64,000 nucleotides of DNA from Promethearchaeota archaeon (GTDB lineage: Archaea > Asgardarchaeota > Lokiarchaeia > Sigyniarchaeales > SOKP01), in NCBI GenBank assembly GCA_016839585.1, contig JAEOTZ010000018.1, positions 1 to 64,000 of the forward strand, given 5' to 3'. The position numbers and the translations under genes are program-made. The notes beneath the pieces are model-generated. The model was given only the letters and a program-made list of their open reading frames with translations, searched no databases and was not told the origin of the DNA. Positions 4,819-44,664 of the stretch are shown one piece after another (positions within the stretch are counted from its first letter, which is position 1; each line of letters starts with the position of its first letter).

Positions 4819-5832
4819 ATGAAAGCGGCCAAATACGAAGGGAAAAGAAAAATCACAATTGTAGATATACCTAAACCAATTCCTAAAAATGACGAGGTAT
4901 TAGTTCAAGTTAAGTATGCAGGCATCTGTGGCTCAGATTTAGAAGCATATAAAACAGGATTATATCCATCTAATATCATTATGGGTCATGAAATTATTGG
5001 TTATGTAGCTGAGAAAGGCTCTGATGTAAAGAAATGGAAAGAAGGAGATCGCGTAGCAGTATTTCCAGGTTTAATTTGTGGTAAGTGTCATTTTTGTAGG
5101 ATAGGTCAGGATAATCTATGTGTCCTTGAAGGATCTTTAGGTTTTGGACAAAATGGTGGTTTTTCGGAATATATTCATGTAAAAGAAGATAGTCTTTTTC
5201 CAATTTCAGATACTATTCCGGATAAACATGGGACGGTTTTTGACCAAATTGCTACTGTTTTATTAGCGTTAAGAGTATCTGATTTTATCCCTGAATGCTA
5301 TTCAGTTATATTGGGATGTGGTACAATGGGTCAATTTTTTCTTCAATATTTAAAAATTGCAGGAGCGAAAACTATTGTTGTTGTTGAGAAAAATCCTAAT
5401 AGATTAAATGTGGCTAATATGTTTAATCCTGATTTAGCACTAACTAAAGTAGTTTTGGTAAAGATAAGAAGATTTGCTAAGCGAGAATTTGGAGGCGCGG
5501 ATTTTGTTTTTGAATGCACTGGTTTTCCAACTTTAGTGAACGATGCCATTAATATTGCACGAAAAGGTGGAACTGTTGTACAAATTGGTATTTGGGACAA
5601 ACCACTCGAAATAAATTTACTTAAATATGTTATGAATCAAATTCGAATCCAACCAGTTTGGAGTTATACAAAAGAAGATTTCAAAAATGCAATAGATTTA
5701 GTTGTTAAAAAAATGATTGATCCCGAACCAATCGTCACTAAAATAATTTCTTTAGATGATATCGTTGAAGAAGGATTTGAATGCGCAATAGATCCTGAGA
5801 CAACTGATATCAAAATCCTTGTAGAACCTTAA
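4819..5832 (+). CDS. Zn-dependent medium-chain alcohol dehydrogenase
   Basis: GICGSD, GHE, CGKCHFCRIGQDNLC structural Zn, GCGTMG. Confidence 0.92.
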   Translation: MKAAKYEGKRKITIVDIPKPIPKNDEVLVQVKYAGICGSDLEAYKTGLYPSNIIMGHEIIGYVAEKGSDVKKWKEGDRVAVFPGLICGKCHFCRIGQDNLCVLEGSLGFGQNGGFSEYIHVKEDSLFPISDTIPDKHGTVFDQIATVLLALRVSDFIPECYSVILGCGTMGQFFLQYLKIAGAKTIVVVEKNPNRLNVANMFNPDLALTKVVLVKIRRFAKREFGGADFVFECTGFPTLVNDAINIARKGGTVVQIGIWDKPLEINLLKYVMNQIRIQPVWSYTKEDFKNAIDLVVKKMIDPEPIVTKIISLDDIVEEGFECAIDPETTDIKILVEP

Positions 5833-5866
5833 ATATAAAACCAATATTTAGATATATAATATTAAT

Positions 5867-6973
5867 ATGAAAAAAATAGGACTTATTGTAAATCCAATTG
5901 CTGGCATGGGTGGCAGTGTTGGATTAAAAGGAACAGACGGCAATGTCTACAAAAAAGCAATGAAAATGGGAGCTATACCAGTTATACCTATTAGGGTAAA
6001 TCAATTATTATCTAACATAAAAAATAAAAAAGATATCTTATTTTTTGTCGCACCTGAAAAAATGGGGGAAAATTACGTCAAAACTAGGGTATTTAAATAT
6101 GAAGTTATTGGAAATATTGGTGAAGATACCTCAGCAGAAGATACAAAACGAATTGCTAAGCTTATGATCGAAAGAGAAATCGATCTACTTGTTTTTTGTG
6201 GAGGTGACGGAACTGCAAGAGATATTTTTGATGCAATTGGATTAGAAAAACCTGTAGTTGCCATTCCTTCGGGAGTAAAAATGTTTAGCTCTGTTTTTGC
6301 CCTTAATCCGATTGCTGCTGCTGAAATAATTGATAAATTTTTGAAAGAACCCTTAGAAACATTAGATCAAGAAATTTTAGATATTAATGAAGAATCTTTT
6401 CGAAAAGGTGTTTTAGATTCAAGATTATATGGATATTTAAAAGTACCCAAAGTTCAAAATCTAATTCAACCTGGAAAAGATAGCTCAAAAGTAGGAATAA
6501 CATCTGAAGAAAACAAGTTTGAAATTGCTCAACACATAATTAAAGATATGGAAAATGATACACTTTATTTATTGGGACCAGGAACGACAGTTAGAGCAAT
6601 TAGCGACCAGTTAAAAATATCAAAAACTCTATTAGGAATTGATGCTATTTATAATAATGAATTAGTTGGAAGAGATTTAAATGAACGAGGAATTTTGGAG
6701 CTTTTAAATAAATTCAAAAAAGCAGAAATTATATTAACGCCAATTGGGGGGCAAGGTTTTATATTAGGAAGAGGAAATAAACAATTTACTCCAAAAATTC
6801 TTAAAATCATTGGAAAAAAGAACATAAGGATAATTGCTACGGAAGAGAAAATGAAAGGATTAAAATGCTTAAGGGTGGATACCGGTGATATTGAAATTGA
6901 CAATAATTTTAAGGGTTTTATCAAAGTAATTATTGGATACAAACAAGAATTAGTAATGGAAATTAAAGCTTAA
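5867..6973 (+). CDS. ATP-NAD kinase/AcoX family protein
   Basis: NPIAGMGGSVGLKGTD, GGDGTARD, GGQGFILGRGN. Confidence 0.88.
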   Translation: MKKIGLIVNPIAGMGGSVGLKGTDGNVYKKAMKMGAIPVIPIRVNQLLSNIKNKKDILFFVAPEKMGENYVKTRVFKYEVIGNIGEDTSAEDTKRIAKLMIEREIDLLVFCGGDGTARDIFDAIGLEKPVVAIPSGVKMFSSVFALNPIAAAEIIDKFLKEPLETLDQEILDINEESFRKGVLDSRLYGYLKVPKVQNLIQPGKDSSKVGITSEENKFEIAQHIIKDMENDTLYLLGPGTTVRAISDQLKISKTLLGIDAIYNNELVGRDLNERGILELLNKFKKAEIILTPIGGQGFILGRGNKQFTPKILKIIGKKNIRIIATEEKMKGLKCLRVDTGDIEIDNNFKGFIKVIIGYKQELVMEIKA

Positions 6974-10891: not shown

Positions 10892-11094
10892 AAATAAAAT
10901 TCTTCTAAATATTAATTTAGATTTTTTTTTAGTAATTGATTAGAATCTTCGTGAAAGCACACTTTTACGAATTTCTATATTATAGAGGTAATCTCACAAT
11001 AATCTCTATATATTATGCAATGAAGTTCATATTCTAATAAGAATTTTTAAATTATAAACCAAAGTATTAATAGATATTGAGATAGGGATATAAT

Positions 11095-42600: not shown

Positions 42601-43638
42601 GTGGCTAAAAGAATATCGATCAATGGATTCGGAAGGATTGGGCGCAATTTTTTTCGCGCGTTATCGGAAAAATATCCCAATGATATCGAAGTTGTTTCCA
42701 TTAATGATTTGTTTGAACCCAAATATCTAGCTTATGTCTTAAAATACGATACAGTATTTGGAAGATTTCAGGGTACTGTCGAGTCTAATGAAAATGCGTT
42801 AGTTGTGAATGGGAAAGAAATTCCAATCACAGCTGAGAGAGATCCAGCAAATTTACCACATTCGAGTAATAATATTGATGTAGCAGTAGAATGTACTGGA
42901 TTCTTTACTAAAAGAGAAGGTGCCGCAAAGCATTTAGAAGCAGGGGCTAAACGAGTCCTTATCAGTGCACCTGCCGTTAATCCAGACTTTACTGTCGTTA
43001 TCGGGTGTAATGATGATAAATTAACTAATGAGCATAAAATTATCAGTATGGCGAGCTGTACTACTAATTGTTTAGGTCCTGTAGTAAAAGTGTTAAATGA
43101 CAATTATAAAATACAAAGCGGTATTATGACCACAATTCACTCATACACCGGTGATCAGAGAACTGTGGATACCGCACGAGCAGGAGATCCTGTAAAGATG
43201 ATTAGAGGAAGAGGCGCCGCTGCAAATATTTTACCAACAAGTACTGGAGCGGCAAAAGCAATTGGTGTAGTCTTTCCAGAGTTGAACGGTAAGCTAGATG
43301 GTATAGCAATGCGTGTCCCAACACCAGATGGATCAGTAGTAGATTTAAAATGTAATGTAGAAAAAAGAGCGACAGCAACAGATATTAATAATAAAATGAA
43401 AGAATATGCAAATGGACAATTAAAAGGAATTTTAGAATATACTGACGATGCGATTGTAAGTAGCGATATAATAGGAAATCCAGCGAGTTCTATTTTCTCT
43501 TCACTATGGACAAAAGTTATAGGGAGTATGGTTGGCGTAGTCTCGTGGTAATCTTGCTACAATTAGTAAAAAGACCATATTGATAATGAATGGGGCTTCT
43601 CGAACCGTATGGCTGATTTGATCGTTCAAAAATTATAG
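42601..43638 (+). CDS. gap: Class I glyceraldehyde-3-phosphate dehydrogenase, split: exon1 42601-43550 plus exon2 43581-43638 (335 aa after splicing)
   Basis: NGFGRIGR, ECTG, ASCTTNCL, STGAAKA, RVPT; joined junction TGG TA|T GAT AAT GAA TGG gives SWYDNEWGFSNRMADLIVQKL*. Confidence 0.9.
43551..43580 (+). other. Candidate archaeal bulge-helix-bulge (BHB) intron in gap mRNA, 30 nt
   Basis: Central 4-bp helix GUGG(43545-48)/CCAU(43575-78); 3-nt bulges UA^A(43549-51) and AU^U(43579-81); intron helix UCUU(43552-55)/AAGA(43571-74); exon pairs C43544-G43582 and U43543-A43583. Confidence 0.82.
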
Positions 43639-43679: not shown

Positions 43680-43835
43680 CGTTTAATTTTCTTTCTAAAA
43701 TTCAATTGATAAATAAACCAATTTCCAAATTCTTCATCTAATTCAAAATTGTACTTTCTAATTGAGAAAAAGAAAAATTCTTTGTTTATTCCCATAAAAT
43801 ATATTTAATTGAAAGGACATTAGAATTATTATAAA

Positions 43836-44255
43836 ATGAATGTTGAAAAAATAAAGAAAGTATTAACAGAAATTTTATTAGAAAATAAGGAGATTATCGC
43901 ATCCTATCTTTATGGTTCTGTATTATACAGTGATTTATATGAAGATATTGATGTTGGATTATTAATTAGCGATATTTTTAAACCGAAACTAATGTATGAA
44001 GCAAAAATAGCTGGAAAATTAGAAAAAAAGCTTAGAGATACTTTTGGGGAGATTAAACCAGTAGATGTTAGAATTTTAAATGACAAACCTTTAAGATTTC
44101 TTTTTTCAATGCTTAAAAATTCTAAAATTATTTGCTCGAGTGATGAGACCAAAAGAATTAAATTTGAAGCAGAAGTTATGAAAGAATATTTAGATATTAA
44201 GCCACATTTCGAAATTTATGATAAGATGAGAGAGTTAAGATATGCAAATAGATAG
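43836..44255 (+). CDS. MNT (minimal nucleotidyltransferase) antitoxin
   Basis: YLYGS..EDIDVG, VDVRILN; overlaps downstream HEPN gene by 14 nt. Confidence 0.88.
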   Translation: MNVEKIKKVLTEILLENKEIIASYLYGSVLYSDLYEDIDVGLLISDIFKPKLMYEAKIAGKLEKKLRDTFGEIKPVDVRILNDKPLRFLFSMLKNSKIICSSDETKRIKFEAEVMKEYLDIKPHFEIYDKMRELRYANR

Positions 44256-44664
44256 AGAATTAATTCATGGAAAAATAGATATTATTGAACGAAATATTAC
44301 CTTTTTAAATACATATAAAGAAAAGAGTGAAGTTGAAATTTTAAGTAGCTATAAAGATGTTCAAGCTATTAAATATTCACTATTTGAAATAATTGAAGCT
44401 TGCATTGATATTGCGTCGCATATAATTTCTGGTAAAGGCCTTCAAAGAGCCGAAAGTTATGCTGAAATGTTTGAGATTCTTGGAAAAAATGATATTTTAA
44501 AAACTCAATTGAGTAAAGAATTATCCAATATGGCAAGATTCAGAAATGTCCTTGTTCATGGATATGCTAAAATTGATAATTCTAAGATTCTTGTTTTTAC
44601 AAAAGAAAAACTAATAGATGTGGAAAATTTTATTAAAGCAATAATAGAATTAATAAAAGAATAA
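44242..44664 (+). CDS. HEPN/DUF86 RNase toxin
   Basis: RNVLVHGY (Rx4HxY) motif. Confidence 0.9.
   Translation: MQIDRELIHGKIDIIERNITFLNTYKEKSEVEILSSYKDVQAIKYSLFEIIEACIDIASHIISGKGLQRAESYAEMFEILGKNDILKTQLSKELSNMARFRNVLVHGYAKIDNSKILVFTKEKLIDVENFIKAIIELIKE

What the first reader, a model, noticed from the sequence alone, without database searches (positions are those of the whole stretch)
43540..43638. Bulge-helix-bulge intron inside a protein-coding gene (GAPDH) of a probable Asgard archaeon
Seen: gap stops at ...VVSW-TAA, but 33 nt later, in the same frame, the conserved tail DNEWGFSNRMADL follows. The junction folds into a canonical BHB: 4-bp helix GUGG/CCAU flanked by 3-nt bulges UAA and AUU on opposite strands, an intron-side helix UCUU/AAGA, and 2 exon-side pairs. 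Cutting after the 2nd nt of each bulge removes exactly 43551-43580 and makes TA|T = Tyr, restoring WYDNE. The alternative 30-nt registers give Phe or Ile. Established: BHB motifs are cut by the archaeal tRNA splicing endonuclease EndA and joined by RtcB; the well-characterised archaeal mRNA case is cbf5 in Crenarchaeota. Inference: this lineage splices mRNA of a core glycolytic enzyme with tRNA-splicing machinery. That would be a candidate class of hidden micro-introns which annotation reports as truncated genes, conceptually parallel to eukaryotic non-spliceosomal HAC1/XBP1 splicing.
Basis: partly seen in the sequence, partly recalled or inferred. Interest (0 to 1): 0.96.

Follow-up and report, generated by a model that had tools for sequence, protein, structure and literature searches.

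The report
tRNA-type mini-intron splitting Asgard GAPDH
The only GAPDH gene of this Asgard archaeon is interrupted by a 30-base hairpin shaped like a tRNA intron, so the tRNA-splicing enzymes very probably have to cut and rejoin its messenger RNA, which papers describe inside the coding region of only one other archaeal gene.

Summary
The class I GAPDH frame stops at VVSW-TAA. Removing exactly 43551-43580 rebuilds the Tyr codon and the conserved WYDNEWG tail.

New evidence:
- A metagenome contig whose GAPDH is 82% identical carries a 30-nt insert at the same site. Its flanks are identical to this one's. Only 13 of 30 interior bases match, yet four arm pairs changed on both sides and still pair.
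- Each insert-bearing allele differs from its nearest insert-free relative in a tight patch around the insert. These changes are synonymous (for example Ser AGC to UCG) and create the exon-side pairs.
- A motif-free comparison with one relative found further exactly-30-nt, stop-bearing inserts. In this genome they lie in PFK, LSm, a CoA-transferase and an acyl-CoA synthetase; the relative has its own. All eight have a BHB in the restoring register.
- The genome encodes two EndA paralogues and RtcB, and no second GAPDH.

No RNA data could be obtained, so splicing is inferred. The strict BHB is not the minimum-energy fold.

Earlier notes of this scan describe similar mini-introns in other genes of this genome and in other Asgard genomes.

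The parts
42601..43550 (+). GAPDH exon 1: GTG start, 316 codons, plus the first two bases (TA) of the Tyr codon
   Evidence: ORF list and translation. Pfam Gp_dh_N 3e-36 and Gp_dh_C 1e-55. The catalytic SCTTNC motif is present.
43551..43580 (+). 30-nt insert (proposed BHB intron), laid out as 1 nt + 9-nt arm + 5-nt loop + 9-nt arm + 4 nt pairing with exon 1 + 2 nt. It holds three in-frame stops.
   Evidence: It is absent from 102 other GAPDH genes of the family and from the 160 other genomes of the class searched. The boundaries are fixed by the orthologue alignment and the Tyr codon.
43581..43638 (+). GAPDH exon 2: third base of the Tyr codon, 18 codons (DNEWGFSNRMADLIVQKL) and the TAG stop
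   Evidence: Translation. The tail and the stop position are conserved in relatives.
43545..43548 (+). Central 4-bp helix, 5' strand (GUGG, in exon 1)
   Evidence: It pairs with 43575-78. The G-U pair here becomes G-C in the L144 allele.
43575..43578 (+). Central 4-bp helix, 3' strand (CCAU, at the intron 3' end)
   Evidence: This helix is kept in the minimum-energy fold.
43549..43551 (+). 5' three-nt bulge UAA; the predicted cut is after 43550
   Evidence: Geometry of the canonical BHB (established knowledge). Joining the two cuts gives UA+U, which is Tyr.
43579..43581 (+). 3' three-nt bulge AUU; the predicted cut is after 43580
   Evidence: These bases are unpaired in both the strict BHB and the minimum-energy fold.
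43552..43574 (+). Intron hairpin: arms 43552-60 and 43566-74 (7 of 9 pairs), loop 43561-65
   Evidence: In the same register as L144, four pairs changed on both sides and still pair (UA/CG, UA/GC, UA/CG, AU/GC).
43543..43544 (+). Exon-side helix, 5' strand (UC), made by the Ser codon UCG where relatives have AGC
   Evidence: It pairs with GA 43582-83. The AGC to UCG change is seen only in the two insert-bearing alleles.
43582..43583 (+). Exon-side helix, 3' strand (GA of the Asp codon)
43542..43608 (+). Patch of clustered, all-synonymous differences from the nearest insert-free allele (L135/G075): 4 adjacent at 43542-45 and 5 at 43590-43608
   Evidence: Nine of 23 CDS differences lie within 30 nt of the insert (binomial p 3.6e-6). 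There are no differences in the 173 nt upstream.

Best explanation
The 30 nt at 43551-43580 are an archaeal bulge-helix-bulge (BHB) intron inside the coding sequence of the organism's only GAPDH gene. In the pre-mRNA, exon-1 bases GUGG pair with the intron's CCAU. A 3-nt bulge lies 3' of each strand of this helix. An intron hairpin and a short exon-exon helix flank the core. The heteromeric splicing endonuclease EndA would cut after the second base of each bulge, and RtcB would join the exons (UA+U gives Tyr) and circularise the intron. The result is a 335-aa GAPDH with the conserved WYDNEWG tail. Unspliced mRNA would give a protein lacking the last 19 residues. Shown here: the anatomy, the register, the comparative signal and the presence of the enzymes. 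Inferred: cleavage and ligation in vivo. The element belongs to a family of 30-nt inserts in coding genes of this genus. Its presence or absence goes together with a short patch of flanking exon sequence, as expected if it spreads or is lost by short-patch recombination between related alleles.
For: 1. Only the deletion 43551-43580 restores Tyr and the orthologous sequence, and that register alone has a 4/4 central helix with two 3-nt bulges. The background rate of such a motif is 1.18e-4 per position.
2. Metagenome contig L144 has a GAPDH 82% identical in protein and 76% identical in DNA to the near-identical allele L135. It carries a 30-nt insert at the same codon phase (L144:2371-2400) and both its exons are intact. 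Its flanks are identical to this window over 18+16 nt (p about 8e-5 at that divergence). Only 13 of 30 interior bases match, yet four arm pairs are compensatory double changes and one central pair goes G-U to G-C. In total 86.7% of cells pair, against 20-50% when the partners are slid.
3. Each insert-bearing allele differs from its nearest insert-free relative mainly around the insert: G000 against L135, 9 of 23 differences within 30 nt (p 3.6e-6); L144 against L142, 10 of 22 (p 1.8e-7). The changes are synonymous and create the exon-side pairs (Ser AGC to UCG).
4. Motif-free census: ORFs of relative G006 (2 Mb) were run by tblastn against this genome, and the reverse. This found exactly-30-nt, stop-bearing inserts in PFK, LSm, a family III CoA-transferase and an acyl-CoA synthetase here, and in UppS and another gene in G006. 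All eight have a BHB in the register that restores the orthologue; the null rate is 1.8e-3 per register. Pfam profile positions run on across the inserts.
5. The PFK insert is 30/30 identical, with identical flanks, in G000 and G021 although the genes are 77% identical.
6. The genome (99% complete) has two EndA paralogues, one close to the crenarchaeal catalytic alpha subunit, and RtcB. Asgard EndA is reported as the broad-specificity (alpha-beta)2 type (PMC5829648).
7. No second class I GAPDH and no type II GAPDH were found.
8. Only 18 tRNA genes are found by ARAGORN, 11 of them with introns, which fits heavy BHB intron load (bioRxiv 10.64898/2026.10.13.758758).
Against: There is no RNA, protein or enzymatic evidence: neither spliced reads nor the circular intron could be looked for.
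The strict BHB is 6-8 kcal/mol above the minimum-energy fold in both alleles, and the fold z-scores are modest (-2.0 and -0.5).
The intron hairpin of this allele is weak: AU-rich, with 2 mismatches in 9 pairs.
The insert is unique among 103 family genomes and 161 class genomes, and it is young in this lineage, so conservation of the 19-codon tail in G000 alone says little.
The covariation rests on two sequences only.
Archaeal transcription and translation are coupled, so how splicing outruns ribosomes is open, above all this close to the 3' end.
Confidence: 0.85

Rival explanations
1. A recent insertion of a small hairpin element has inactivated the gene. On this reading it is a fresh pseudogene, or it yields a truncated 316-aa enzyme, and the BHB-like fold does nothing.
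For: The insert is young in this lineage: the nearest insert-free allele differs by 1.5% in the CDS. It is unique among the genomes searched. So an intact tail in G000 is expected even without selection. The strict BHB is not the minimum-energy fold.
Against: It is the only GAPDH found in a 99% complete genome. A second, diverged allele keeps both exons intact around a same-site insert whose arms changed compensatorily. Eight of eight homology-defined 30-nt inserts, several in core genes, have the motif in the restoring register. Synonymous exon changes build the helix.
Confidence: 0.08
2. Translational bypassing: ribosomes hop over the 30 nt, as over the gap in phage T4 gene 60 or the byp elements of yeast mitochondria.
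For: A stop codon follows the last sense codon directly, and the gap forms a hairpin.
Against: No matching take-off and landing codons would restore Tyr: Trp UGG next occurs beyond the DNE codons. The Tyr codon is split between the two sides, which hopping cannot rebuild. The other family members also lack matched codons in general. The conserved geometry is that of a BHB.
Confidence: 0.02
3. Assembly or sequencing artefact.
For: The genome is a 91-contig assembly, and raw reads could not be inspected.
Against: An independent metagenome contig has an insert of different sequence at the same site. Similar inserts occur in a single-contig relative. An identical PFK insert occurs in another genome.
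Confidence: 0.01
4. The insert is removed at the RNA level, but not by EndA/RtcB; some other nuclease and ligase recognise the hairpin.
For: Enzyme specificity was not tested. The minimum-energy fold differs from a strict BHB.
Against: The cut sites implied by homology fall after the second base of two 3-nt bulges, each 3' of a 4-bp helix, in 8 of 8 cases. That is the EndA signature. EndA and RtcB are both present.
Confidence: 0.04

Closest known systems
cbf5 pre-mRNA intron of Crenarchaeota (Watanabe 2002; Yoshinari 2006; Yokobori 2009, PMC2738675)
   Same: A BHB intron inside a protein-coding sequence, in a lineage with a hetero-oligomeric EndA, removed by the tRNA-splicing machinery. It is also patchily gained and lost among relatives.
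   Different: A different gene (a core glycolytic enzyme) and a different phylum (Asgard). This one belongs to a multi-gene family of uniform 30-nt inserts, and its presence is coupled to a patch of flanking exon changes. The cbf5 intron has experimental proof; this one has none.
Archaeal tRNA and rRNA BHB introns
   Same: The same motif: a 4-bp helix with two 3-nt bulges, each 3' of its helix strand, cut after the second bulge base. The same enzymes are encoded here. This genome's tRNA genes are heavily interrupted.
   Different: The host is an mRNA. The exon side of the motif has to be built from codons, apparently through synonymous changes.
BHB intron in the 5' UTR of Haloferax volcanii HVO_1309 (PMC7714728)
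   Same: An mRNA substrate of the archaeal splicing endonuclease.
   Different: That intron lies in an untranslated leader, not in the reading frame.
HAC1/XBP1 unconventional splicing (Ire1 plus tRNA ligase or RtcB), and SOS splicing of transposons from animal mRNAs (PMC12779559)
   Same: Non-spliceosomal removal of a short structured segment from an mRNA, with ligation by tRNA-ligase-type enzymes. In SOS splicing, paired ends of a mobile insert trigger the excision.
   Different: The endonuclease and the recognition motif differ. No stress regulation is shown here. The likeness is conceptual only.
Co-conversion of flanking exons during homing of group I introns and archaeal rRNA introns
   Same: Intron-bearing alleles of diverged genes share short flanking exon tracts that their insert-free relatives lack.
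   Different: These 30-nt inserts encode no endonuclease. The shared flanks may equally reflect selection for the exon-side helix.

Membership tests
Archaeal BHB intron (EndA/RtcB substrate) | A 4-bp helix flanked by two 3-nt bulges on opposite strands, each 3' of its helix strand, with flanking helices (hBHBh') | tested here: met
   GUGG/CCAU, bulges UAA and AUU, exon helix UC/GA, intron arms with 7 of 9 pairs. Caveat: this conformer is suboptimal in energy.
Archaeal BHB intron (EndA/RtcB substrate) | Cutting after the second base of each bulge and joining yields the functional product | tested here: met
   It removes 43551-43580, rebuilds TAT and gives SWYDNEWG as in all relatives. This is an in-silico result only.
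Archaeal BHB intron (EndA/RtcB substrate) | The structure is maintained in homologues through compensatory change | tested here: met
   Comparing G000 with L144: 4 double changes in the arms and 1 G-U to G-C change in the core. Only two sequences are available.
Archaeal BHB intron (EndA/RtcB substrate) | Splicing endonuclease and RtcB ligase are encoded by the host | tested here: met
   Two EndA paralogues (103 and 69 bits) and RtcB at 561 bits.
Archaeal BHB intron (EndA/RtcB substrate) | Cleavage and ligation observed (spliced RNA, circular intron, in vitro cut) | not testable with these tools
Class I (bacterial/eukaryotic-type) GAPDH | Gp_dh_N and Gp_dh_C domains, the catalytic Cys motif and the C-terminal WYDNEWGY/F tail | tested here: met
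   Pfam; SCTTNC in exon 1 and the tail in exon 2; 97% identity to an intact 335-aa orthologue.
Homing-type mobile intron | An intron-encoded or associated endonuclease, with co-conversion of flanks | tested here: inconclusive
   Flank patches are shared by insert-bearing alleles, but the insert encodes nothing. LAGLIDADG domains exist in the genome, one next to an insert-bearing gene, with no link shown.

The most novel reading that the evidence does not exclude
These are not isolated accidents. They form a family of mobile, uniform 30-nt BHB micro-introns that colonise conserved sites of core protein genes in Loki-type Asgard archaea. They move between orthologous genes of related species by short-patch, homing-like recombination, carrying co-adapted exon flanks with them. 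The cell tolerates them because the tRNA-splicing machinery removes them from mRNA. That would amount to a protein-only mRNA intron system in the closest prokaryotic relatives of eukaryotes.
Probability: 0.4. Interest if true: 0.92.

Novelty: new variant of a known kind. Interest (0 to 1): 0.85.

Why it matters
Papers in the library describe an archaeal intron inside a coding region for one gene only, cbf5, plus one in a 5' UTR (PMC7714728). If this reading is right, several things follow:
- A central glycolytic enzyme and several other core genes of an Asgard archaeon cannot be made without mRNA splicing by tRNA enzymes.
- Automatic annotation reports such genes as truncated or split.
- Metabolic reconstructions of Asgard genomes would wrongly score them as missing.
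- Interrupted protein genes with enzymatic mRNA splicing would exist in the lineage nearest to eukaryotes. That bears on how a cell copes with introns before a spliceosome, and with coupled transcription and translation.
- The flank-patch signature gives a testable handle on how such introns spread.

Tried and rejected
2. Copies of the insert elsewhere in the genome: none within 3 mismatches, so it is not a repeated element by sequence.
3. Motif-plus-ORF-fusion scans of the whole genome. I tried the strict motif, long arms, and the 1+9+5+9+4+2 layout against a mirror-image control. All gave no excess over the control, because the AT-rich genome yields about 800 chance motifs per intron length. 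Structure alone cannot find these inserts, so I replaced the scans with the homology census.
4. The two-HSP census misses short terminal exons and may undercount frameshifting inserts. Two weak 20-nt candidates (C9, C2) were not accepted.
5. The genome-contig scan returned only distant bacterial-type GAPDHs and no names for the near relatives.
6. A pattern search for more GAPDH inserts in 161 class genomes gave only spurious in-gene matches.
7. Profilin as an Asgard marker scored below the cut-off; actin was decisive instead.
8. Translational hopping, a changed genetic code and assembly error were considered and rejected (see rivals).

Full report
**What is in the sequence.** The window is contig C90 of a 3.45-Mb, 91-contig genome, 99% complete and about 30% G+C. 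An ORF from a GTG at 42601 encodes a class I GAPDH: Pfam Gp_dh_N 3e-36 and Gp_dh_C 1e-55, with the catalytic SCTTNC motif. The frame stops at TAA 43549-51, directly after ...VVSW. After 33 nt holding three stops, the same frame continues with DNEWGFSNRMADLIVQKL and a TAG at 43636-38.

All intact relatives read SWYDNEWG(F/Y)SNR without interruption. Thirty extra bases therefore sit inside the Tyr codon. Of the possible 30-nt deletions only 43551-43580 gives Tyr; its neighbours give Phe, Ile, Cys or His.

**The motif.**
- Exon bases GUGG (43545-48) pair with CCAU (43575-78).
- UAA (43549-51) and AUU (43579-81) are 3-nt bulges, each lying 3' of its helix strand. This is the handedness of the BHB motif in pre-tRNA (established knowledge).
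- UC (43543-44) pairs with GA (43582-83).
- Intron positions 2-10 pair with 24-16 in 7 of 9 places, around a 5-nt loop.
- Cuts after the second base of each bulge remove exactly the 30 nt that homology demands.
- A motif of this strength at a fixed length of 30 occurs at 1.18e-4 per position in this genome.
- Caveat: the strict conformer is not the minimum-energy fold, at -5.2 against -11.5 kcal/mol (z = -2.0). The minimum-energy fold keeps the central helix and the 3' bulge, opens the 5' site into a 4x4 loop, and uses an outer helix shifted by 2 nt.

**Organism and enzymes.** The genome has two EndA paralogues. One is closest to the catalytic alpha subunit of the Aeropyrum and Pyrobaculum heterotetramers (3p1z_B, 127 bits); the other is more diverged. 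It also has RtcB (561 bits). Four actin-family genes, the best at 443 bits over the whole Pfam Actin profile, together with the archaeal EndA, place it among Asgard archaea. Published work assigns Asgard archaea the (alpha-beta)2 EndA with the loop that gives broad substrate range (PMC5829648). ARAGORN finds only 18 tRNA genes, 11 with introns. That agrees with the heavy interruption of Asgard tRNA genes reported in bioRxiv 10.64898/2026.10.13.758758. No other class I GAPDH and no type II GAPDH was found.

**Distribution.** Among 103 family genomes with a GAPDH match, only this one has stops inside. A pattern search of 161 class genomes found no further case.

The nearest insert-free allele (metagenome contig L135, the same allele as genome G075) is 97% identical in protein. 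Within the CDS it differs at 23 positions, and 9 of them lie within 30 nt of the insert (p 3.6e-6). Four adjacent bases turn GTT AGC into GTC TCG, and five synonymous third positions differ at 43590-43608. The 173 nt upstream are identical. The AGC to UCG change keeps Ser and creates the two exon-side pairs and the first pair of the central helix.

**A second allele with the insert.** Metagenome contig L144 (JABUBP010009100.1) encodes a GAPDH 82% identical to this one, with both exons intact. It carries a 30-nt insert at the same codon phase, at L144:2371-2400.
- Its flanks are identical to this window over 18 nt upstream and 16 nt downstream, including GTC TCG. Its own insert-free relatives read GTT AGC.
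- Only 13 of 30 interior bases match.
- In the shared register, four arm pairs changed on both sides and still pair, and the G-U of the central helix becomes G-C.
- Overall 86.7% of cells pair, against 20-50% when the partners are slid by 1-3 columns.
- Against its nearest insert-free relative L142 (0.75% different in the CDS upstream), 10 of 22 differences again lie within 30 nt of the insert (p 1.8e-7).

A structure kept through many substitutions, inside a gene that stays intact, argues against a dead gene.

**A family of such inserts.** Motif-based scans of the genome were useless: real and mirror-image motifs gave equal counts. I therefore fetched 2 Mb of relative G006, a single-contig genome, and compared ORFs by tblastn in both directions.

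Exactly-30-nt, in-frame, stop-bearing inserts appear in this genome in:
- GAPDH;
- an LSm gene (C59:53203-32, minus strand);
- an acyl-CoA synthetase-like gene (C53:4382-4411, minus strand);
- a family III CoA-transferase (C53:10955-84);
- PFK (C62:43149-78, minus strand).

There are also frameshifting candidates of 31 and 29 nt. G006 has its own 30-nt inserts in UppS and in another gene.

In all eight 30-nt cases the register that restores the orthologue has a central helix with at most one mismatch, two 3-nt bulges and a 7-10-bp hairpin. The null rate of this criterion is 1.8e-3 per register. Pfam profile positions run on across the inserts: CoA_transf_3 12-33 then 35-366, and PFK 11-100 then 103-276.

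The PFK insert is identical in all 30 bases, with identical flanks that form a 4-bp exon helix, in G000 and G021, although the two genes are 77% identical. G075 and G017 lack it. G075 also lacks both CoA-transferase inserts.

**Reading.** The anatomy, the register, the compensatory changes, the exon changes that build the helix, the family context and the enzymes together make an EndA/RtcB-spliced mRNA intron the best explanation; I put it at about 0.85.

The coupling of insert and flank patch in two genes suggests gain or loss by short-patch recombination between related alleles. Whether this is active homing or simply selection for co-adapted flanks cannot be told from these data.

Splicing itself is inferred.

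**Relation to what is known.** In the library searched, BHB introns in archaeal mRNAs are described for cbf5 of Crenarchaeota (inside the coding region) and for the 5' UTR of Haloferax HVO_1309 (PMC7714728, PMC2738675, PMC5829648). I found no paper on such introns in Asgard protein genes.

Earlier notes of this scan describe similar mini-introns in other genes of this genome (thioredoxin, uS3, pfk, dnaG, RNase HII, an E2) and in other Asgard genomes (rpoA2, TBP, EF-1alpha, cdhA and others). I re-tested the PFK and C53 cases myself; the rest I did not check. New here are the GAPDH case, its second allele with compensatory changes, the flank-patch signature and the motif-free census.

Noticed in passing
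window 43721-44647: A MNT-type nucleotidyltransferase (Polbeta, 43836-44255) and a HepT-like RNase (44242-44664) form a toxin-antitoxin-like pair. They sit in about 930 nt that the near-identical relative L135 lacks; it has about 41 nt there. So a cassette was inserted, or lost in the relative, directly downstream of GAPDH.
   Followed up: partly
G000 contig C62:43464-43494 (-) and 43149-43178 (-); locus L308: PFK carries two inserts. A 31-nt frameshifting one is seen only in G000, again with synonymous flank changes (GGC GGC where relatives have GGA GGA). A 30-nt one is identical, flanks included, in G021 but absent from G075 and G017.
   Followed up: yes
G000 contig C53:10855-10886 (+) and 10955-10984 (+); C53:4382-4411 (-); loci L306, L307: A family III CoA-transferase has two inserts (32 and 30 nt) only 68 nt apart, and the neighbouring acyl-CoA synthetase-like gene has a 30-nt one. 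Two of the three share the loop AUAUC. G075 lacks both CoA-transferase inserts.
   Followed up: partly
G000 contig C53, match at 5683-5886 (-): A 605-aa open frame with a LAGLIDADG_3 match lies directly upstream of the insert-bearing acyl-CoA synthetase gene. Five more LAGLIDADG matches lie elsewhere in the genome. It could be a trans-acting homing endonuclease or an intein; I did not examine it.
   Followed up: no
G006 (relative) 1505072-1505101 (+), 1621948-1621977 (-), about 1129380-1129409; loci L110, L116, L091: The single-contig relative has its own 30-nt BHB inserts, in UppS (inside GLIVDG|NRRWA) and in another gene, plus a 28-nt frameshifting candidate. All are at sites that are uninterrupted in G000.
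   Followed up: partly
G000 contigs C27:~6605-6631 (+) and C26:~65325-65346 (-); loci L309, L310: Two-HSP splits imply 31-nt and 29-nt frameshifting inserts in a 552-aa and a 785-aa protein. I did not work out their boundaries or motifs.
   Followed up: no
whole genome G000: All in-frame inserts found by homology are exactly 30 nt long, with no shared sequence beyond a first A/U and a purine-rich end. Why the length is fixed is unexplained.
   Followed up: no
G000 against G075, several genes: Divergence between these two genomes varies greatly by gene: GAPDH 1.5% in DNA, the CoA-transferase region about 14%, PFK about 19%. This suggests frequent recombination between species of this genus.
   Followed up: no
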